Below are positions 1,659 to 36,881 of a DNA stretch of 44,025 nt, piece after piece. The notes below the pieces were generated by a model. The model made no database searches. It saw nothing but the letters and a program-made list of their open reading frames with translations, and was not told where the DNA came from. Source of the DNA: a virus (lineage: Duplodnaviria; Heunggongvirae; Uroviricota; Caudoviricetes). Where the stretch lies: IMG/VR virus record IMGVR_UViG_2917408641_000004; one strand, given 5' to 3'. The position numbers were made by a program, and so were the translations under genes. Each line of letters starts with the position of its first letter. Position 1 is the first letter of the stretch.

Positions 1659-4130
1659 TTAAGAATCAGCCTGACTCGGGATCAGTTTTTGCCAGATAAC
1701 TGAAACGTATTTTGCCTGGTAACGGGCGTCATCAAGTGCATTATGGCGCTCACCTTCGAATGGAATAGCCGTTCTGGCATCGAAGTCTATGGCTTTCCCC
1801 AGCTCAACGATTGTGCGTACATCGCGATCGTTGTAGTAACGCCACGGGCAGGGGATCCCCTGCCGTTCGTATGAACGGCGCAAAATCGTGTTGTCGAAGT
1901 TGGCTCCATTTCCCCAGACCTGAACAAAAAATTCACCGGAGTTTTCGTCGATAAATTCCCGCAATTGTAACAGTGCATCATCTAACGGGATTTCATCGGT
2001 CATAATGGCAGATTGCGCTTCGCGTGATTGCTTAAGCCACCATTTAATGGTGTCCCGATCAATGACTCCGCCAGCAGTTTCCAGATCGATAGTCTTACTA
2101 AATTCGGGTCCCATATCTCCGGTTTGCGGATCGAAAAATATTGCACCTATTGAGATGATCGGGGCATCAGGATTTTTTCCCATGGTTTCAAGGTCGATCA
2201 TTAGATGGTCACACGTCCTGCTGGTGGATGTGATTTCGTGATGACCGTTCACCTTAATTGAGTGATCTGCCGTCTCGCCAGTTTCATTATCGCTATTGTG
2301 ATGCTGATTGCCGCCAGTGTTCTCCTTGTGTGGATGTTCAGCGCCTTCCATTTCCTCCGGATCATCTTCCTGAACTTCAACCTGATACTCTTCATCGAAT
2401 GTTTCTTGGTATGTTGCGTCGCCCATCACCGCGCCACAATCAGGGCAGTTGCCGCCGCCGGTCTGACCGCAGGCGGTGCAGACTTTTTCCACTTCCTGTT
2501 GCGCCACTGGTTCAGGCTGTTTCGTTTCTGGCTCGTTTTGTAACGCATTTGGGCTGTTTTGTTCCGCTTTTTGGTAGTTCCGTTCCGATTCATGCTGGTT
2601 CTGGTTCACAGAATCGCGGGTCTGGATCCCCTTAACCCATTTCGGATCATTCGGGTCACTAATCCCTTCAACAAATTCACCACGTGATGCAGCAAGCAAC
2701 TTATCGGCGTCAGGCTGGCTGATATTGGCTGCCTGCATAATTTTGTTTACTTCGTCAGCGGTAACTTTTATCGGCTCTGGTTGTTCTGAATCTTCAGCGG
2801 TATCTACATTTTGCGGTAAGCCCGTGTATGTGCCATTTTTTCGGGCAAAATATTCTTCTTTTGTGATTTCAGTGGCGCCAGCAGCCAGTGCCTTATCCAG
2901 ACCAGAAAGTTTGTTTGCGCGACCGTATTTTTCTCCGTCCTTATCTGCGAAGAGGAAATAGAACGGCCCCTCACGCTCTACAGATGGTTCAGCTTCCGGC
3001 GCGGTTTCATTTTTTGGGATATCAGATACCTCAGTTTCCACTGCATCAGTTTGTGTTTCTGATGACTGGAGAACATCAACAGTGCCTAGGTCTGTTTCTT
3101 CATTCTCAAACACGCCCTTTGTCGTCAGGTATTCGCAGATATATTTGTTCAGTGCTACGGGATCTTTGTGAATGTCGATCGGACGCTCACGGACAAGGCC
3201 AAAAATAGTTTGGCGGTCGTAGCGAAGGGCATCAGGCTGTTTGCGCATTGATGCCGAGATACGCTTCCAGTCTTCGCGGTCGTTGTCGATAACTTCTTTT
3301 TTTGCCCAGCGATGGATGCTGCCGTCAATGTTTCCGGCATCCACATCACCAGGCCAGAGAGCGTAGGCCAGTTCGTCATCCAGTGTTTTCCATGTCTGCT
3401 TGTATTCGCGATGAATGGCAGCAATGACCGGGCTGATTTTTCCTGTTGAATTTTCAGTGTACTGTTGATTGGCTCTGGCGCGGGCGAGATCAACAACAGA
3501 CGTGTATTTTCCGGTTTCCTTGCGTTCACCTTCGCGACGTTTTTTCCAGATGCGCATCTCTGCCTGAATTTCGGGCCATTTAGCACCAGGAATACATTTA
3601 TGCTTAACCCACCCAATGGCGTGCAACTTAAGCTCCGGATACATGGCGTTAACTTCTGGCATTTTCATCAACGCTTCAACGATATGTCCGTCGAATGTTG
3701 CCATGTCTTCCTGCAACAATTCCTGTGCGCTAATAACCATATCAACGGTGATGTTTTCACATGTGTCGAACTTAACCATGACAGCGTTCTGTACTTCAGG
3801 GGCCAGCTTGTCAAAAGTGACGTTCATCGGATCGGATTCAGTCTCAACCGGGACAAAAGAAGCAGACTCCTCATCCCAGCGGTTTTCCTGCATATATTCA
3901 GCATCCCATGAATCGAGGGCAGGGCGGGGTATGCCAGGTTTATCCTCGCAGACAATAAATTTATAAGCGCAGTCCTGAGCAGCCGGATAATGTTCCAGGA
4001 ACTGCCAGTGAAATTTTGCTCGAGCACGGCGTTCGTCGCCAGCTTCAATGGCTGTGGCTACAGCCACAGCGCCTTCTTCCCTTGTTGCCAGTTCGTCAGG
4101 AATAGCGGCGCAAATAAAGACTTTACTCAT
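1659..4130 (-). CDS. Large phage exonuclease with C-terminal DEDDh 3'-5' exonuclease domain
   Basis: 823-aa ORF; C-terminal ~190 aa carry Exo I/II/III-like motifs (MIDLETMG, WGNGANFD, HNALDDARY); central Cys4 cluster CTACGQ..CPDCG; occupies the recombination-gene position. Confidence 0.75.
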   Translation of the reverse strand: MSKVFICAAIPDELATREEGAVAVATAIEAGDERRARAKFHWQFLEHYPAAQDCAYKFIVCEDKPGIPRPALDSWDAEYMQENRWDEESASFVPVETESDPMNVTFDKLAPEVQNAVMVKFDTCENITVDMVISAQELLQEDMATFDGHIVEALMKMPEVNAMYPELKLHAIGWVKHKCIPGAKWPEIQAEMRIWKKRREGERKETGKYTSVVDLARARANQQYTENSTGKISPVIAAIHREYKQTWKTLDDELAYALWPGDVDAGNIDGSIHRWAKKEVIDNDREDWKRISASMRKQPDALRYDRQTIFGLVRERPIDIHKDPVALNKYICEYLTTKGVFENEETDLGTVDVLQSSETQTDAVETEVSDIPKNETAPEAEPSVEREGPFYFLFADKDGEKYGRANKLSGLDKALAAGATEITKEEYFARKNGTYTGLPQNVDTAEDSEQPEPIKVTADEVNKIMQAANISQPDADKLLAASRGEFVEGISDPNDPKWVKGIQTRDSVNQNQHESERNYQKAEQNSPNALQNEPETKQPEPVAQQEVEKVCTACGQTGGGNCPDCGAVMGDATYQETFDEEYQVEVQEDDPEEMEGAEHPHKENTGGNQHHNSDNETGETADHSIKVNGHHEITSTSRTCDHLMIDLETMGKNPDAPIISIGAIFFDPQTGDMGPEFSKTIDLETAGGVIDRDTIKWWLKQSREAQSAIMTDEIPLDDALLQLREFIDENSGEFFVQVWGNGANFDNTILRRSYERQGIPCPWRYYNDRDVRTIVELGKAIDFDARTAIPFEGERHNALDDARYQAKYVSVIWQKLIPSQADS

Positions 4131-4223
4131 TTTGTTTTAACCTCATGACAGATTTAAGGATGAACAAATCCCTGCCATTGCTGGCATATAAGAATGAAAC
4201 CGGATATTTATTACGGAACTGTT

Positions 4224-4415
4224 TTAAAGACCTGCCGGGATTTCGATATTATCCAGGTGAATAACTTTATCGACCGGGTAACAGTTACCGGGAATTTTCT
4301 GTTCGGTTGCTGCAGTCATACACTCCTGCATTGTCCTGTGAACACTGACTGCAATATCAACTGGCTCTCCGGAAACAAGAAAAACTGTCAGAACAAGCGC
4401 AAATGCTGAATTCAT
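4224..4415 (-). CDS. Small hypothetical protein with N-terminal signal peptide
   Basis: 63 aa from ATG at 4415 (SD AAGGA 8 nt upstream); hydrophobic N-terminus MNSAFALVLTVFLVSG; ATGA overlap with upstream gene suggests translational coupling. Confidence 0.5.
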   Translation of the reverse strand: MNSAFALVLTVFLVSGEPVDIAVSVHRTMQECMTAATEQKIPGNCYPVDKVIHLDNIEIPAGL

Positions 4416-27934: not shown

Positions 27935-28143
27935 ACCAGAATGATATCGAAGCCATGATTCAGCGTTATACGGAAGCTGAAATGGCGGTGCTGGACGGAA
28001 AATCCGTCACTTTTAATGGTCAGCAGATGACCATGGAAAACTTATCTGAGATCCGGCAGGGGCGGCAGGAGTGGGAGCGCCGCCTTGCGGCTCTGATTAC
28101 ACGACGACGGGGGCATCCCGGGTACCGGCTGGCGAGGTTCTGA
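27931..28143 (+). CDS. W: Head-tail joining protein W-like
   Basis: 70 aa; ATGA overlap with terminase stop; lambda gpW-like size and C-terminal RRRG motif. Confidence 0.7.
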   Translation: MNQNDIEAMIQRYTEAEMAVLDGKSVTFNGQQMTMENLSEIRQGRQEWERRLAALITRRRGHPGYRLARF

Positions 28144-28667
28144 TGGCAATTCTTGATGATGTGATTGGCGTTTTTTCACCAGGATGGAAAGCGGCAAGGC
28201 TGCGTTCCCGTGCGGTGATCCAGGCTTATGAGGCCGTAAAAACGACGCGGACACACAAAGCCCGACGGGAGAACCGAACTGCCGACCAGTTAAGCCAGTA
28301 CGGGGCCGTGTCGTTACGTGAGCAGGCCCGTTACCTTGATAACAACCACGATCTGGTCATTGGTGTATTTGACAAGCTGGAAGAACGGGTGGTGGGGAAA
28401 AGACCGGTGATGCCGTGGATTGACCCTGTTAAGGAGGCTGAGGCCTGGAAAATTCAGATTCGTGGTGGAGCGGCGACAGAATCAGACTGGGTACGTGCAG
28501 GTGGTCGTAATCCAGATGATGTCAAACGTCGGCGCAAGGCCGAAATTGATGAAAACCGCAAGCTGGATCTGGTATTTGATACCGATCCGGCCAGTGATAA
28601 AGGAGGCAGCAGTGCCGCAACGAAACGACAGGAGCCGCAGCACACCGACGACCAGTCCGAAGAATAA
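28143..28667 (+). pseudogene. Portal protein remnant with large internal in-frame deletion
   Basis: Only 174 aa where a portal of about 500 aa is expected; N-terminal part (..LREQARYLDNNHDLVIGVFDKLEERVVG) and C-terminal part (..PWIDPVKEAEAWKIQIRGGAATESDW..) align with the N- and C-terminal regions of lambda gpB; TGATG coupling to W. Confidence 0.55.
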
Positions 28668-32315: not shown

Positions 32316-33059
32316 ATGACCACACCAAATCCACTGGCAAAAACGAAAGGTGCGGGAACGACGTTCTGGATGTATACCGGCAAGGGCGATGCGTTTGCGA
32401 ACCCTTTATCGGACACTGACTGGCTGCGTCTTGCGATGGTGAAGGATCTGCAACCTGGCGAAATGACCGCTGATGCAGAAGATGACACTTATCTCGATGA
32501 TGAAGATGCAGACTGGAAAACGACAACCCAGGGGCAGAAATCCGTTGGTGATACTTCGGCGACGCTGGCCTGGCGTCCGGGTGACAGCGGGCAGAAAAAA
32601 CTGGTTCAGTTGTTCGACTCCGGTGAAGTCTGCGCGTTTCGTATCAAATATCCCAACAGCACTGTTGATGTTTTCCGTGGCTGGCTGAGCTCACTGGGTA
32701 AAACCATTGCCTCAAAAGACGTGATGACCCGCACTGTGAAAATCAGCGGTGTGGGGCGTCCGTATCTGGCAGAGGAAGGCACTGAAACCGTGAGCGTTAC
32801 CGGGCTGACAGTATCACCGGCATCTGCCAGTGTAAAAGTGGGAGCAACCACCACGCTGACCTTTACAGTAAAACCTGACGGAGCCAGTGACAAAGCGATC
32901 AGTGTGCATTCGTCAGATCCACAGACTGCCACGGTTACCCTGAACGGACTTGTGGCCACGGTAAAAGGCGTGAAGCAGGGCAGTGTCAGCATTGTGGGCA
33001 TGACCGCTGACGGGAATTTTGTGGCTGTGGCTGCGGTGACTGTCAGCGCAGCAGGTTAA
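32316..33059 (+). CDS. V: Major tail protein V with C-terminal Ig-like domain
   Basis: 247 aa from ATG 32316 (SD AAGGAGG); ..KGAGTTFWMYTGKGDAFANPLSD..YLDDEDADW..VDVFRGWLSS.. matches gpV. Confidence 0.9.
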   Translation: MTTPNPLAKTKGAGTTFWMYTGKGDAFANPLSDTDWLRLAMVKDLQPGEMTADAEDDTYLDDEDADWKTTTQGQKSVGDTSATLAWRPGDSGQKKLVQLFDSGEVCAFRIKYPNSTVDVFRGWLSSLGKTIASKDVMTRTVKISGVGRPYLAEEGTETVSVTGLTVSPASASVKVGATTTLTFTVKPDGASDKAISVHSSDPQTATVTLNGLVATVKGVKQGSVSIVGMTADGNFVAVAAVTVSAAG

Positions 33060-33079: not shown

Positions 33080-33103
33080 GCCCCGGTTATTCGGGGCTTT
33101 TTT
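33080..33103 (+). terminator. Terminator-like hairpin after major tail gene
   Basis: GCCCCG-GTTATT-CGGGGC followed by TTTTTT. Confidence 0.5.
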
Positions 33104-33116
33104 GCAGGTGGAGAAC

Positions 33117-33506
33117 ATGATGTTTCTGAAACAGGACACGTTTAATTATGAAAAACAGTCCGTGGTGCTCAGTGAGCTGTCCGGGCTGCAGAGAATTGAA
33201 TATCTGACGTTTGTTCAGCAGCGAACGGCAAAGTTTGATGCCGGGGAGGGAGAACTGCCGGAGGCTGAACGACAGATTGCTTTTCTGCGGATGGGGATGG
33301 ATATCAATGCCTGGCTGGTTTCCCGCTCACTGTGGAATGCGGAACAGTCTCAGGATGTTGAGACGCTTTACGCATCCGTTATTACAACATGGTCGTATGA
33401 TGCCCTGGGTGCGGGGGCGGAGATGGTTCTGTCGCTGAGCGGTATGGGGGCCATTGATAATGCCGGGGATTTGGAGCATGAGGTGCTGACGCCGGAAAAG
33501 TCCTGA
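33117..33506 (+). CDS. G: Tail assembly chaperone G
   Basis: About 130 aa starting MMFLKQDTFN; ..LSELSGLQRIE..SLW.. as in gpG. Confidence 0.8.
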   Translation: MMFLKQDTFNYEKQSVVLSELSGLQRIEYLTFVQQRTAKFDAGEGELPEAERQIAFLRMGMDINAWLVSRSLWNAEQSQDVETLYASVITTWSYDALGAGAEMVLSLSGMGAIDNAGDLEHEVLTPEKS

Positions 33507-33844
33507 CGCGGGAAATGCAGTTTGTCATGCGGCTTGCCCGGGAGTTCCGGCGGGCAGACTGGCGGCGGATGCTGTCGGAAATGTCGGCCACTGAGCTTGG
33601 TGAGTGGGGCGATTATTTCCGGATGCAGAGCTTCAGTGATGTGTGGATGGATGCGCAGTTTGCCTCGCTGAAGGCATTGATCGTGAGAATGGTGTCCGGC
33701 AGCAGTGATGCTGCGGTGGCTGATTTCAGCCTTTTACCGGAAGAGAACGGGATACCGGAGCGAACGGACGAAGAACTGATGCATCTTGGGGAAGGTATTT
33801 CCGGAGGTGTGCGTTATGGACCAGATAGCCAACCTGGTCATTGA
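33482..33844 (+). CDS. T: Tail assembly chaperone T segment, probably expressed as G-T fusion by -1 frameshift
   Basis: ORF in the -1 frame relative to G, open from 33482, overlapping the last 7 codons of G; arrangement identical to lambda G/T. Confidence 0.65.
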   Translation, partial: GADAGKVLTREMQFVMRLAREFRRADWRRMLSEMSATELGEWGDYFRMQSFSDVWMDAQFASLKALIVRMVSGSSDAAVADFSLLPEENGIPERTDEELMHLGEGISGGVRYGPDSQPGH

Positions 33845-36800
33845 TTTGGGGATTGATGCGGCAGAGTTTAAAAATGAAATTCCCCGTATCAAAAACCTTC
33901 TGAATGGTGCAGCCAGCGATGCAGAACGGTCTTCTGCCCGTATGCAGCGTTTTATGGAGCGTCAGACTCAGGCCGCCCGGCAGACAACGCAGGCGGCGTC
34001 TTCGGCTGCAACAGCCGCATCCGTCCATGCGCAGACGGTGGAGAAGAACGCACAGGCTCATGAACGCATGGCCCGCGAGGTGGAGAAAACCCGCCAGCGT
34101 ATGGAGGCACTGAGCCAGAAAATGCGCGAGGAACAGGCGCAGGCCATGGCTCTGGCGGAGGCTCAGGATAAAGCAGCTGCTGCGTTTTATCGTCAGATTG
34201 ACAGTGTGAAACAGGCCAGTGCGGGGCTGCAGGAATTACAGCGTATTCAGCAGCAGATCCGACAGGCCAGAAACAGTGGCGGGATTGGTCAGCAGGATTA
34301 TCTGGCGCTGATTTCTGAGGTTACGGCGAAAACCCGTGTTCTTACGCAGGCTGAGGAAGAGGCTACCCGACAGAAAGTGGCGTTTATCCGTCAGCTTAAA
34401 GAGCAGGCAACCCGCCAGAATCTTTCTTCTTCTGAGTTGCTTCGTGCTAAGGCTGCCCAGCTGGGGGTAAGCAGTGCTGCAGAAGTGTATATCCGCAAAA
34501 TGGAGCAGGCAGGAAAAGCCACGCATTCGCTGGGTCTGAAAAGTGCAGCGGCCCGCCAGGAGATAGGCGTTCTGATAGGTGAACTGGCCCGCGGCAATTT
34601 AGGGGCGCTGAGGGGATCCGGGATAACGCTGGCTAACCGTGCCGGATGGATAGACACTCTGATGTCACCGAAAGGCATGATGCTTGGCGGGGTTATTGGC
34701 GGTATTGCCGCGTCCGTCTATGGTCTGGGTAAAGCCTGGTATGACGGTCAGAAGGAGGGGGAAGAATTTAACCGCCAGTTGTCGCTGACGGGGCATTATG
34801 CCGGAGTCACTGCCGGGCAGCTGTGGACGCTCAGTCGTGCTATTTCCGGGAATGGTATCACGCAACATGCTGCAGCCGGTGCGCTGGCTCAGGTGGTGGG
34901 GAGTGGTGCATTTCGTGGAAACGATATCGGTATGGTGGCGAGAGCTGCCGCACAGATGGAGCGATCGGTTGGCCAGTCGGTCAGCGATACCATAAATCAG
35001 TTTAAGCGGCTGAAGGATGATCCTGTAAATGCCGCGAAGGCTCTGGACAATGAGCTGCATTTTCTTACTGCCACTCAGCTTGAGCAGATACGTGTCCTTG
35101 GGGATCAGGGACGGTCCAGTGATGCTGCACGGATAGCCATGTCTGCACTGGCAGAGGAAACCGGTCGGCGTACTGCGGATATTGATAATAACCTCAATGC
35201 GCTTGGCAGTACGCTGAAGTATCTGTCTGATTTGTGGAGTCGTTTCTGGGATGCGGCCATGAATATTGGTCGTGAAGACTCGCTGGATGAACAGATTGCC
35301 GCTTTACAGGAGAAAGTGTCGCGGGCGAAAAGACTCCCCTGGACGGCATCATCTTCTCAGGTTGAATACGATCAGCAGCGTCTTAACGATCTTCAGGAGA
35401 AAAAACGCCAGAAGGATTTGCAGGATGCAAAAGAGCAGGCAGAGCGGAATTATCAGGAGCAACAGAAACGACGTAATGCTGAAAATGCTGCACTGAACCG
35501 GATGAATGAAACGGAAGCAGCACGACATCAGCGTGAAATTGCGCGTATTAATTCCATGCAGTACGCCGATCAGGCTGTCAGGGATGCAGCGATACAACGT
35601 GAAAATGAACGTTACGAGAAAGCCCTGGCATCCGGTAAGAAAAAAACACGCGAAACCCGTAATGATGAGGCCACCCGGTTATTGCTGCAGTACAGTCAGC
35701 AACAGGCACAGGTGGAAGGACAGATTGCTGCTGCAAGACAGTCAGCAGGCATTGCCACTGAAAAGATGACAGAAGCGCATAAACAGCTTCTGGCTCTGCA
35801 GCAGCGCATCAGCGATCTGGACGGGAAAAAACTGACGGCAGATGAAAAGAGTGTGCTGGCCCGTAAAGATGAACTGATTCAGGCACTGACGCTGCTGGAT
35901 GTAAAACAGCAGGAGCTTCAGAAACAGACGGCACTCAACGATCTGAAGAAAAAAACAATTCAGCTGACCAGTCAACTGGCTGAAGAAGAGCGCGCTCAGC
36001 GTCAGCAACATGACCTGGATATCGCCACGGTGGGTATGGGTGATCAGCAGCGGCAGCGATATCAGGTACAACTGAGTCTTCGCCAGAAATACCAGCAACA
36101 GCTGGAGCAGTTGAGGCGGGATAGTGAGCAGAAAGGGACATATAACACGGATGACTACAGAAAGGCCGAGCAGGCGCTGACGGAGAGCCTGAACCGACAA
36201 CTGAATGAGAATCGCCGTTACTGGCAACAGCTTGAAGTTGTGCAGGGTAACTGGAAAAACGGAGTCCTGCGTGCATTTCAGGATTTTACCGTGGATGCAG
36301 ACAATACGGCAGGAACAGCAGAACAGGTGTTCTCGTCAGCCTTCAGCAACATGGGAAATGGCCTGGCAACTTTTGTCACTACCGGCAAACTCAACTTCAA
36401 ATCCTTCACCTCTTCGGTGCTGTCAGATATGGCGAAAATCCTGGCGCAGGCAACCATGATGAAATCGATAAAAGGGATTGGCAGTGTACTGGGATTTGAT
36501 CTCAGCAGCCTTTCCCTGAATGCCAATGGGGGGATTTATCAGTCTGCTGATTTGAGTCGTTACAGTGGCACGGTGGTTAACCGTCCGACGTTTTTTGCTT
36601 TTGCAAAAGGCGCGGGTGTGATGGGGGAAGCTGGACCTGAAGCCATTCTGCCACTGCGTCGTGGTGCTGACGGTAAGCTGGGGGTTGTGGCGGATATTGG
36701 TGGTTCAGGTATGGCGATGTTTGCCCCGCAGTACAACATCGAGATCAATAACGATGGCACGAACGGGCAGATAGGTCCGGCTGCCCTGAAGGTGGTTTAT

Positions 36801-36881
36801 GACCTTGGGAAAAAAGCGGCAGCGGACTTTATGCAACAGCAGGCCCGTGATGGTGGTCGGTTAAGTGGAGCATATCGGTAA
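33816..36881 (+). CDS. H: Tail tape measure protein H
   Basis: 1021 aa from ATG 33816 (SD GGAGGTG); long coiled-coil-rich protein with C-terminal Gly-rich region; position between T and M. Confidence 0.9.
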   Translation: MDQIANLVIDLGIDAAEFKNEIPRIKNLLNGAASDAERSSARMQRFMERQTQAARQTTQAASSAATAASVHAQTVEKNAQAHERMAREVEKTRQRMEALSQKMREEQAQAMALAEAQDKAAAAFYRQIDSVKQASAGLQELQRIQQQIRQARNSGGIGQQDYLALISEVTAKTRVLTQAEEEATRQKVAFIRQLKEQATRQNLSSSELLRAKAAQLGVSSAAEVYIRKMEQAGKATHSLGLKSAAARQEIGVLIGELARGNLGALRGSGITLANRAGWIDTLMSPKGMMLGGVIGGIAASVYGLGKAWYDGQKEGEEFNRQLSLTGHYAGVTAGQLWTLSRAISGNGITQHAAAGALAQVVGSGAFRGNDIGMVARAAAQMERSVGQSVSDTINQFKRLKDDPVNAAKALDNELHFLTATQLEQIRVLGDQGRSSDAARIAMSALAEETGRRTADIDNNLNALGSTLKYLSDLWSRFWDAAMNIGREDSLDEQIAALQEKVSRAKRLPWTASSSQVEYDQQRLNDLQEKKRQKDLQDAKEQAERNYQEQQKRRNAENAALNRMNETEAARHQREIARINSMQYADQAVRDAAIQRENERYEKALASGKKKTRETRNDEATRLLLQYSQQQAQVEGQIAAARQSAGIATEKMTEAHKQLLALQQRISDLDGKKLTADEKSVLARKDELIQALTLLDVKQQELQKQTALNDLKKKTIQLTSQLAEEERAQRQQHDLDIATVGMGDQQRQRYQVQLSLRQKYQQQLEQLRRDSEQKGTYNTDDYRKAEQALTESLNRQLNENRRYWQQLEVVQGNWKNGVLRAFQDFTVDADNTAGTAEQVFSSAFSNMGNGLATFVTTGKLNFKSFTSSVLSDMAKILAQATMMKSIKGIGSVLGFDLSSLSLNANGGIYQSADLSRYSGTVVNRPTFFAFAKGAGVMGEAGPEAILPLRRGADGKLGVVADIGGSGMAMFAPQYNIEINNDGTNGQIGPAALKVVYDLGKKAAADFMQQQARDGGRLSGAYR

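What the first reader, a model, noticed from the sequence alone, without database searches (positions are those of the whole stretch)
33482..33515. G/T overlap with a non-canonical slippery sequence
The T frame is -1 relative to G and opens just after a stop at 33479-33481, so a G-T fusion requires a -1 shift within 33482-33503. The canonical lambda heptamer GGGAAAG is absent; the only candidate is CCG-GAA-AAG (an A-AAG lysine slip). Either frameshifting here uses a weaker site or G-T expression is impaired, which would be a second defect in this prophage.
Basis: partly seen in the sequence, partly recalled or inferred. Interest (0 to 1): 0.4.

Follow-up and report, generated by a model that had tools for sequence, protein, structure and literature searches.

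The report
Normal N15-type G/T frameshift site
The phage tail-chaperone genes G and T overlap here at the sequence GGAAAAG instead of lambda's GGGAAAG, but that same sequence is the usual one in working relatives such as N15, phi80 and mEp460, so it is an ordinary frameshift site and not a defect.

Summary
Gene G (33117-33506) and the T frame (open from 33482, stop at 33842-33844) overlap. T is -1 relative to G, so the shift must happen within 33482-33503. GGGAAAG is absent from that window, and the only shift-prone sequence is G_GAA_AAG at 33494-33500.

- The junction is base-for-base identical in seven sequenced phages, several with a named laboratory host: mEp460, Tritos, Ayreon, cdtI, phi458, HannyBb and PhiR55_1.
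- GGAAAAG sits at the homologous position in N15, phi80, HK225, mEp043, Fels-1 and a Klebsiella phage. The N15 GenBank record annotates it as the -1 slippery sequence.
- It occurs in 51 of 79 G/T loci from species-representative genomes, in 48 distinct sequence contexts. The flanks vary and the heptamer does not.

The "weaker site" reading stays plausible. In published in vitro work G_GAA_AAG is less slippery than G_GGA_AAG, and I found no conserved stimulatory RNA structure.

The most likely mechanism is a low-level -1 slip. tRNA-Lys re-pairs AAG to AAA, and tRNA-Glu re-pairs GAA to GGA with a middle G.U pair. The product would be a 242-aa G-T fusion.

The prophage does carry one real defect elsewhere: a 984-bp in-frame deletion in the portal gene.

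The parts
32316..33059 (+). Major tail tube protein gene (lambda V homolog). This is the upstream context gene.
   Evidence: Pfam Phage_TTP_12 at 2e-65 plus Big_2. It corresponds to the annotated major tail protein of mEp460, Tritos and the RefSeq record.
33080..33105 (+). GC-rich hairpin followed by a T run, between V and G (gccccggttattcggggctttttt). It resembles an intrinsic terminator.
   Evidence: Read directly from the sequence. The mEp460 and Ayreon records annotate a rho-independent terminator at the equivalent position.
33117..33506 (+). Gene G, the tail assembly chaperone (129 aa from the ATG at 33117; RefSeq starts it at 33120). The stop TGA is at 33504-33506.
   Evidence: TIGR01674 phage_lambda_G at 8e-56, and PF06894 at 1.4e-40.
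33479..33481 (+). TGA in the T (-1) frame. It sets the upstream limit of the shift window.
33494..33500 (+). Shift site G_GAA_AAG. In the 0 frame it reads Glu-Lys, and in the -1 frame it reads GGA AAA.
   Evidence: It is the only in-frame N_NNY_YYZ site in the shift window. It is positionally homologous to lambda G_GGA_AAG and identical to the N15 heptamer that GenBank annotates as the slippery sequence. Positions 2, 4, 5 and 6 are invariant across 62 distinct homologous loci.
33500..33844 (+). T-frame (-1) part of the predicted G-T fusion: 114 codons from GTC at 33500, plus the stop at 33842-33844. The predicted fusion is 128 + 114 = 242 aa, with the junction ...LTPEK|VLTREMQF...
   Evidence: TIGR01715 phage_lam_T at 4e-40, and PF06223 at 5e-15. 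T-frame conservation (K2, E7, F10 invariant) starts at the heptamer, upstream of the ATG at 33515.
33816..36881 (+). Tape measure protein gene (lambda H homolog). This is the downstream context gene.
   Evidence: Pfam TMP_2 at 7e-49 and Tape_meas_lam_C at 3e-22.

Best explanation
This is the intact, wild-type programmed -1 ribosomal frameshift site of a lambda-like G/GT tail-assembly-chaperone gene pair. It is the N15/phi80-type variant G_GAA_AAG rather than the lambda-type G_GGA_AAG. Most ribosomes read G to its stop at 33504-33506 and make gpG. A small fraction slip back one base with GAA in the P site and AAG in the A site. tRNA-Lys (anticodon mnm5s2UUU) re-pairs perfectly from AAG to AAA. 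tRNA-Glu (anticodon UUC) re-pairs from GAA to GGA, keeping the first and third base pairs and forming a G.U pair in the middle. Translation then continues in the T frame from GTC at 33500 and yields a 242-aa G-T fusion. By homology with lambda, that fusion would link the tape measure protein to the tail tube subunit. Shown here: the gene identities, the frame geometry, the uniqueness of the site, its identity in sequenced related phages, and its conservation at nucleotide level. Inferred: that the slip occurs, that both tRNAs take part, and that efficiency is lower than in lambda. No stimulatory RNA element appears to be involved.
For: 1. G and T are equivalog-level matches to lambda G and T, and they lie between the V and H homologs.
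2. The geometry allows a shift only within 33482-33503, and GGAAAAG is the only site there.
3. The 161-nt junction region is 99% identical in mEp460, Tritos, Ayreon, cdtI, phi458, HannyBb and PhiR55_1, and is invariant from 33486 to 33546. The hosts named in the records include E. coli K12, C and MC1061.
4. The same heptamer lies at the aligned position in N15, phi80, HK225, mEp043, Fels-1 and Kp4865-4, at 42-67% T identity. The N15 record annotates exactly these 7 bases as 'slippery sequence for -1 translational frameshift'.
5. Among 79 loci from GTDB species representatives, 51 have GGAAAAG, in 48 distinct contexts. Heptamer positions 2, 4, 5 and 6 are 100% conserved, and positions 1 and 7 are 95% conserved, while the flanks are 35-70% conserved. 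Position 1 is the synonymous third base of seven different codons (GCG, CCG, CTG, AAG, TTG, ACG, GTG) plus ATG, and it is G in 59 of 62.
6. All 120 IMG/VR contigs with the same flanks carry GGAAAAG.
7. In 62 of 62 distinct loci the G frame stops within 10 codons after the heptamer and the T frame stays open. The first Met in the T frame is at 5, 9, 15 or 23 codons, so there is no conserved independent start.
8. A_AAG is the most shift-prone tetramer in E. coli (PMC4066793). Sites with a non-cognate P-site codon before A_AAG are used naturally, for example G_CGA_AAG in IS1222 (PMC5009743).
Against: No frameshift product was observed here, so everything is comparative. In a reconstituted system G GAA AAG gave mainly 0-frame product and was described as unfavourable for slippage (PMC6924986). 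In vivo, Z_ZZN tetramers without a stimulator were barely above background, at 0.147% versus 0.112% (PMC4066793). I found no conserved downstream structure. The alifold consensus of 48 sequences was -1.5 kcal/mol with about zero covariation, and fold z-scores were near 0. An upstream SD-like GAGGTG at 33480-33485 is polymorphic (GAGGCG in mEp460), and such motifs occur in only 20 of 48 lineages. How enough G-T is made therefore remains unmeasured.
Confidence: 0.86

Rival explanations
1. The site is decayed. A G-to-A change in an ancestral GGGAAAG crippled G-T synthesis, giving a second defect in a degenerating prophage.
For: GGAAAAG differs from lambda's GGGAAAG by one base. It is less slippery in vitro. 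The prophage does carry a real defect, a 984-bp deletion in the portal gene.
Against: The junction is identical in seven sequenced phages, several with a named laboratory host. The same heptamer is present in N15 and phi80. It occurs in 48 distinct lineages across many enterobacterial genera, with an invariant heptamer in variable flanks. All 120 IMG/VR relatives sampled carry it.
Confidence: 0.02
2. T is made as a free protein from its own ATG at 33515, as most GenBank and RefSeq records annotate it, and no frameshift is needed.
For: An ATG at 33515 is preceded by GGGAA, a weak SD-like sequence. The RefSeq, mEp460, Tritos, cdtI, HannyBb and PhiR55_1 records all annotate a 109-aa T protein starting there.
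Against: The start is not conserved. The first Met in the T frame falls 5, 9, 15 or 23 codons after the heptamer, and in most lineages it lies inside the conserved LAREFGRPDWR core. Ayreon and phi458 annotate other starts. T-frame conservation (K2, E7, F10) begins at the heptamer, before the ATG. In lambda the T sequence is described as being made as the -1 frameshift-derived gpGT fusion (PMC5009743).
Confidence: 0.06
3. The outcome is the same, but only one tRNA slips. Peptidyl-tRNA-Lys on AAG slips to AAA in the P site while the A site waits for the next codon (UCC here, a stop codon in some relatives), and tRNA-Glu plays no part.
For: In 13 of 62 distinct lineages a stop codon (TAG or TAA) directly follows the heptamer. 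The P-site codon varies (GAA, GGA, GTA, GCA), and AGAAAAG occurs in Morganella. A_AAG alone is a known -1 site.
Against: Heptamer positions 1 and 2 (GG) are 95% and 100% conserved, even though position 1 is a synonymous third-codon base in many different codons. A single tRNA-Lys slip would not require that, whereas keeping the first base pair of the P-site tRNA after the shift would. In this window the next codon is UCC, not a stop.
Confidence: 0.2
4. The -1 change is made at the RNA level, by transcriptional slippage on the A run.
For: The site contains a run of four A residues.
Against: From established knowledge, productive RNA polymerase slippage in bacteria needs runs of roughly 7-9 or more A or T residues, and four is far too short. 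Conservation of the G at position 7 and the GG at positions 1-2 fits tRNA re-pairing, not polymerase slippage.
Confidence: 0.01

Closest known systems
Bacteriophage lambda G/GT programmed -1 frameshift (Levin, Hendrix and Casjens 1993; Xu, Hendrix and Duda 2004, 2013, as cited in PMC5009743)
   Same: The proteins are homologous (TIGR01674 and TIGR01715 equivalogs). The gene order V-G-T-H is the same. The shift site is at the aligned codon, and the same A-site AAG-to-AAA tRNA-Lys slip is implied. No downstream structure is evident.
   Different: The P-site codon is GAA (Glu) instead of GGA (Gly), so re-pairing in the -1 frame has a middle-position G.U pair instead of a full match. The G stop comes 1 codon after the heptamer instead of 5. 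The T part is shorter (114 versus 145 codons), because lambda has a repeated C-terminal GGVRY segment.
Phage N15 genes 14/15, and likewise phi80, HK225 and mEp043
   Same: The heptamer GGAAAAG is identical and lies at the homologous position. In the N15 GenBank record it is annotated as the slippery sequence for the -1 frameshift.
   Different: T identity is only about 41-43%. In N15 the G stop is 5 codons downstream, whereas here it is 1 codon downstream.
A_AAG sites with a non-cognate P-site codon: IS1222 G_CGA_AAG and Bacillus subtilis cdd A_CGA_AAG (PMC5009743)
   Same: These are -1 shifts that depend on tRNA-Lys slipping from AAG to AAA, without a canonical XXX triplet for the P-site tRNA.
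   Different: They occur in different genes. According to the E. coli motif study, IS-element shift sites usually come with stimulators. Here none was found, and the P-site re-pairing (GAA to GGA) is closer to cognate.
E. coli dnaX A_AAA_AAG
   Same: It uses the same shifty A-site codon and the same tRNA-Lys.
   Different: dnaX has a fully cognate tandem slip, an upstream SD-like element and a downstream stem-loop, and it shifts at high efficiency. None of these features is shown here.

Membership tests
Lambda-type G/GT tail assembly chaperone frameshift | Two overlapping ORFs lie between the major tail protein gene and the tape measure gene, with the second ORF in the -1 frame. | tested here: met
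   V is at 32316-33059, G at 33117-33506, the T frame at 33482-33844 and H at 33816-36881. T is -1 relative to G.
Lambda-type G/GT tail assembly chaperone frameshift | The upstream ORF is homologous to gpG and the downstream ORF to gpT. | tested here: met
   TIGR01674 scored 187.7 bits (cutoff 74.45) and TIGR01715 scored 136.5 bits (cutoff 77.35). Pfam PF06894 and PF06223 also matched.
Lambda-type G/GT tail assembly chaperone frameshift | The downstream ORF has no conserved start of its own, and its conservation begins at the shift site. | tested here: met
   The first T-frame Met is at 5, 9, 15 or 23 codons across 62 distinct loci. Invariant K2, E7 and F10 precede the ATG at 33515.
Lambda-type G/GT tail assembly chaperone frameshift | A shift-prone sequence lies in the overlap, in register with the G frame. 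| tested here: met
   G_GAA_AAG at 33494-33500 is in register, is unique in the shift window, and aligns with lambda G_GGA_AAG.
Lambda-type G/GT tail assembly chaperone frameshift | A G-T fusion protein is made at a low, fixed ratio to G (about 1:30 in lambda). | not testable with these tools
   This needs a reporter assay, a western blot or proteomics. The lambda ratio is taken from PMC5009743.
Canonical X_XXY_YYZ tandem-slippage heptamer | Positions 1-3 are identical and positions 4-6 are identical, so both tRNAs re-pair cognately in the -1 frame. | tested here: not met
   Positions 1-3 are G, G, A. Only the YYY part (AAA) is present. The site should not be filed as a canonical heptamer.
N15/phi80-type G_GAA_AAG G/T shift site | The heptamer GGAAAAG lies at the codon aligned with the shift site of N15 genes 14/15. 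| tested here: met
   N15 locus L094 positions 604-610 read GGAAAAG and are annotated as the slippery sequence. The T-frame alignment starts at GK in every member.
Stimulated -1 PRF signals (dnaX or IS3/IS911 type) | A conserved downstream hairpin or pseudoknot lies 5-9 nt after the motif. | tested here: not met
   For the 60 nt after the site in this window z = 0.09, and for 90 nt z = -1.09. Across 48 homologs the mean z was -0.31, and the alifold consensus was -1.5 kcal/mol with a covariation term of about 0.06. In the 7-sequence alifold the covariation term was unfavourable, at +0.88.
Stimulated -1 PRF signals (dnaX or IS3/IS911 type) | A conserved SD-like element lies 6-17 nt upstream. | tested here: inconclusive
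   GAGGTG at 33480-33485 lies 8 nt before the heptamer, but it reads GAGGCG in mEp460, Tritos, cdtI, HannyBb and PhiR55_1. A GGAG, GAGG or AGGA motif occurs within -21 to -5 in 20 of 48 lineages, in a region rich in acidic (GAG/GAA) codons.

The most novel reading that the evidence does not exclude
G_GAA_AAG is not a canonical slippery heptamer, yet it is the majority G/T shift site in enterobacterial lambda-like tails, and lambda's GGGAAAG is the minority. Kinetic studies use this same sequence as the unfavourable control. Either it shifts in vivo at a lambda-like few percent without any stimulator, which would extend the P-site re-pairing rules to a middle-position G.U pair, or these phages assemble tails with a much lower GT:G ratio than lambda, whose assembly is reported to need a balanced ratio. 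The near-invariant G at the synonymous position 1 hints that P-site re-pairing is under selection.
Probability: 0.3. Interest if true: 0.35.

Novelty: already known. Interest (0 to 1): 0.12.

Why it matters
For this window it matters little. The G/T junction is wild-type and should not be counted as a defect when judging whether the prophage is functional; the portal deletion is what disables it. There are two wider points. First, automatic annotation (RefSeq and most phage records seen here) still calls T as a free 109-aa ORF and gives no slippage join. Second, scanners that demand a strict X_XXY_YYZ motif will miss the commonest shift site of this family, so G_GNA_AAR should be accepted for lambda-like G/T pairs. 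The measured efficiency of G_GAA_AAG in its natural context, compared with lambda's site, is a small, cleanly testable gap.

Tried and rejected
1. Downstream stimulatory structure. Folding of 60 and 90 nt after the site in the window, N15, phi80, lambda and Fels-1 gave z-scores between -1.6 and +0.7. RNAalifold on 7 sequences and then on 48 gave no supported structure. Rejected.
2. Upstream SD-like stimulator (GAGGTG at 33480-33485). It is polymorphic and not conserved. Left as inconclusive.
3. The GGGAAAT at 33510-33516 as a hidden lambda-like site. It lies after the G stop and out of register. Rejected.
4. Other slip sites in 33482-33503. No other codon re-pairs in the -1 frame.
5. First IMG/VR scan with the T protein. 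It returned only relatives 100% identical to the query, so it gave no diversity. I replaced it with a tblastn 'spread' sample of phages and a profile scan of species-representative genomes.
6. Literature. Searches for GGAAAAG with 'frameshift', for 'tail assembly' with N15 and 'slippery', and for phi80/N15 found no paper in the library that discusses this heptamer in phages. Xu et al. 2004 and Xu et al. 2013 are not held. The statement that N15's heptamer is recognised therefore rests on its GenBank annotation.
7. The expensive protein-database, structure-prediction and fold-search tools were not used. Gene identity was already at equivalog level, and those tools could not bear on slippage.

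Full report
**The observation**

The ORF at 33117-33506 reads ...GAG GTG CTG ACG CCG GAA AAG TCC TGA. The frame one base behind it has a TGA at 33479-33481 and is then open from 33482 to a stop at 33842-33844. A fusion of the two therefore needs a -1 shift within 33482-33503. No X_XXY_YYZ heptamer lies in that window. The only in-register site with an A-site slip is G_GAA_AAG at 33494-33500. GGGAAAG occurs ten times in the window, but never in the overlap.

**What the genes are**

- The upstream ORF is an equivalog-level match to lambda gpG (TIGR01674, 8e-56; PF06894, 1.4e-40).
- The -1 frame is an equivalog-level match to lambda gpT (TIGR01715, 4e-40; PF06223).
- They lie between a lambda-V-type tail tube gene (PF16461, 2e-65) and a lambda-H-type tape measure gene.
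- The window is a lambdoid prophage of the mEp460/cdtI type. It is 100% identical over the G-T region to E. coli O121 chromosomes, and close relatives occur in 1848 of 5426 complete E. coli genomes.

**Test of the "impaired" reading**

- Over 161 nt around the junction, mEp460, Tritos, Ayreon, cdtI, phi458, HannyBb and PhiR55_1 are 99% identical to the window. They are invariant from 33486 to 33546, which includes GCTGACGCCGGAAAAGTCCTGA. Some of these records name laboratory hosts such as E. coli K12, C and MC1061.
- All 80 IMG/VR relatives found with the T protein carry CCGGAAAAGTCCTGA.
- All 120 IMG/VR contigs found with the flanks and a free heptamer carry GGAAAAG.

**More distant relatives**

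I extracted the G/T junction from phages whose T protein is 34-67% identical to this one.

| Heptamer at the aligned codon | Phages |
|---|---|
| GGAAAAG | Fels-1, mEp043, HK225, Klebsiella phage Kp4865-4, N15, phi80 |
| GGGAAAG | lambda, PhiR12_4, one group of Stx2a phages |
| AAAAAAG | another group of Stx phages |
| CCCAAAA | Vibrio phages |

The N15 GenBank record annotates exactly these seven bases as "slippery sequence for -1 translational frameshift". The HK225 record calls the downstream ORF "tail assembly protein GT".

A profile scan of one genome per species gave 79 usable loci.

| Heptamer | Loci | Notes |
|---|---|---|
| GGAAAAG | 51 | |
| GGGAAAG | 19 | Most are literal lambda DNA in assemblies of unrelated bacteria |
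| AGAAAAG | 3 | Morganella |
| GGTAAAG | 3 | Two are Pantoea; the third is an Enterobacterales MAG |
| GGCAAAA | 2 | |
| GGGAAAA | 1 | |

After removing duplicates there are 62 distinct contexts, and 48 of them have GGAAAAG. Heptamer positions 2, 4, 5 and 6 are invariant. Positions 1 and 7 are 95% conserved, and position 3 is A in 82%. Flanking columns are mostly 35-70% conserved. Within this family lambda's heptamer is the exception and GGAAAAG is the rule.

**Evidence that the two frames are joined at this point**

- In all 62 distinct loci the G frame stops within ten codons after the heptamer, and the T frame stays open.
- The T frame has a stop within ten codons upstream in 41 of the 62.
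- The first methionine in the T frame is at codon 5, 9, 15 or 23 after the heptamer, depending on lineage. In most lineages it falls inside the conserved LAREFGRPDWR core.
- T-frame residues K2, E7 and F10 are invariant. In this window they lie upstream of the ATG at 33515, which the databases annotate as the T start.

This is the signature of a fusion made by a -1 shift at the heptamer. It is not what an independently initiated T gene would look like.

**How it most likely works**

After the slip, tRNA-Lys moves from AAG to AAA, which is a perfect match. A_AAG is the most shift-prone tetramer in E. coli (PMC4066793; PMC5009743). tRNA-Glu moves from GAA to GGA, keeping its first and third pairs and forming a G.U pair in the middle.

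Heptamer position 1 is the third base of the preceding G-frame codon. It is G in 59 of 62 distinct loci, even though that codon is variously GCG, CCG, CTG, AAG, TTG, ACG, ATG or GTG. The T-frame GGA codon is never translated, so this conservation looks like selection on the RNA. It fits the need to keep the first base pair of the P-site tRNA after the shift. I therefore favour a two-tRNA slip, but this is an inference.

A single P-site tRNA-Lys slip remains possible. Thirteen of the 62 lineages place a stop codon directly after AAG.

I found no stimulator.

- Folds of the downstream 60-90 nt are no more stable than shuffled sequence.
- RNAalifold finds no supported structure, either in 7 sequences (covariation term +0.88) or in 48 sequences (-1.5 kcal/mol).
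- An SD-like GAGGTG eight bases upstream is polymorphic among the phages.

**What remains open**

- Peng et al. 2019 used AUG GAA AAG as the sequence "unfavorable for slippage", in contrast to G GGA AAG, and saw mainly 0-frame product (PMC6924986).
- Sharma et al. 2014 found tetramers without stimulators barely above background.
- The lambda G:GT ratio is about 30:1 (PMC5009743).
- The ratio for GGAAAAG phages has not, to my knowledge, been reported in the papers available here.

This is a modest, testable gap. It is not a defect of this prophage.

**The prophage's real defect**

The window lacks 984 bp (328 codons, in frame) of the portal gene relative to phage Tritos. Window positions 28401|28402 correspond to Tritos 3299|4284, which leaves a 174-aa remnant of a 502-aa protein. 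That deletion should prevent head assembly. The G/T junction is not a second lesion.

**Verdict**

The feature is an already known kind of site, the N15-type G/T shift heptamer, in an ordinary member of the family. Interest is low.

Noticed in passing
window 28143-28667 (junction at 28401|28402): The portal gene carries a 984-bp (328-codon) in-frame internal deletion relative to phage Tritos (Tritos 3300-4283 are missing). This leaves a 174-aa remnant of the 502-aa portal protein. mEp460, HannyBb and cdtI also have about 985-995 bp more than the window over this stretch.
   Followed up: partly
window 28396-28402: A GGAAAAG lies exactly across the portal deletion junction. Tritos reads GGGGAAAAACGG at the left breakpoint and TTCCGGACCAGTG at the right. 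The window reads GGGGAAAAGACCGGTG. Any microhomology is therefore at most a few bases.
   Followed up: partly
window, whole: GGAAAAG occurs 15 times on both strands, against 7.1 +/- 2.2 expected from dinucleotide shuffles, and 0 of 100 shuffles reach 15. Codon and amino-acid composition may account for it. I did not examine this.
   Followed up: no
window 33080-33105: A GC-rich hairpin followed by a T run lies between the major tail gene V and G. The mEp460 and Ayreon records annotate it as a rho-independent terminator. If functional, it would lower G/T/H transcription relative to V.
   Followed up: no
loci L158-L164, L166-L170, L177, L180, L181 (GTDB genome contigs): G/T junctions identical to lambda's over the 34 nt compared turn up on short or low-coverage contigs of unrelated bacteria, including Kitasatospora, Paenibacillus, Oceanobacillus, Shewanella, Leeuwenhoekiella, Pseudoxanthomonas and Chromatium. 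This looks like lambda control or marker DNA contaminating those assemblies. It inflates the apparent count of GGGAAAG sites.
   Followed up: no
window 33515-33844 and equivalent features in L001-L008: RefSeq and most GenBank records annotate T as a free ORF, with starts that disagree between records: 109 aa in mEp460, cdtI and RefSeq, 87 aa in Ayreon, and 91 aa in phi458. None of them gives a ribosomal-slippage join.
   Followed up: yes
loci L114-L116 (Morganella), L119-L126, L132, L172 (Proteus, Providencia), L110, L112: In several lineages the G stop codon (TAA or TAG) directly abuts the heptamer, for example AGAAAAG-TAA, GGAAAAG-TAG and GGCAAAA-TAG. This includes the least canonical heptamers. 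It may mean that slow termination compensates for poorer P-site re-pairing.
   Followed up: no
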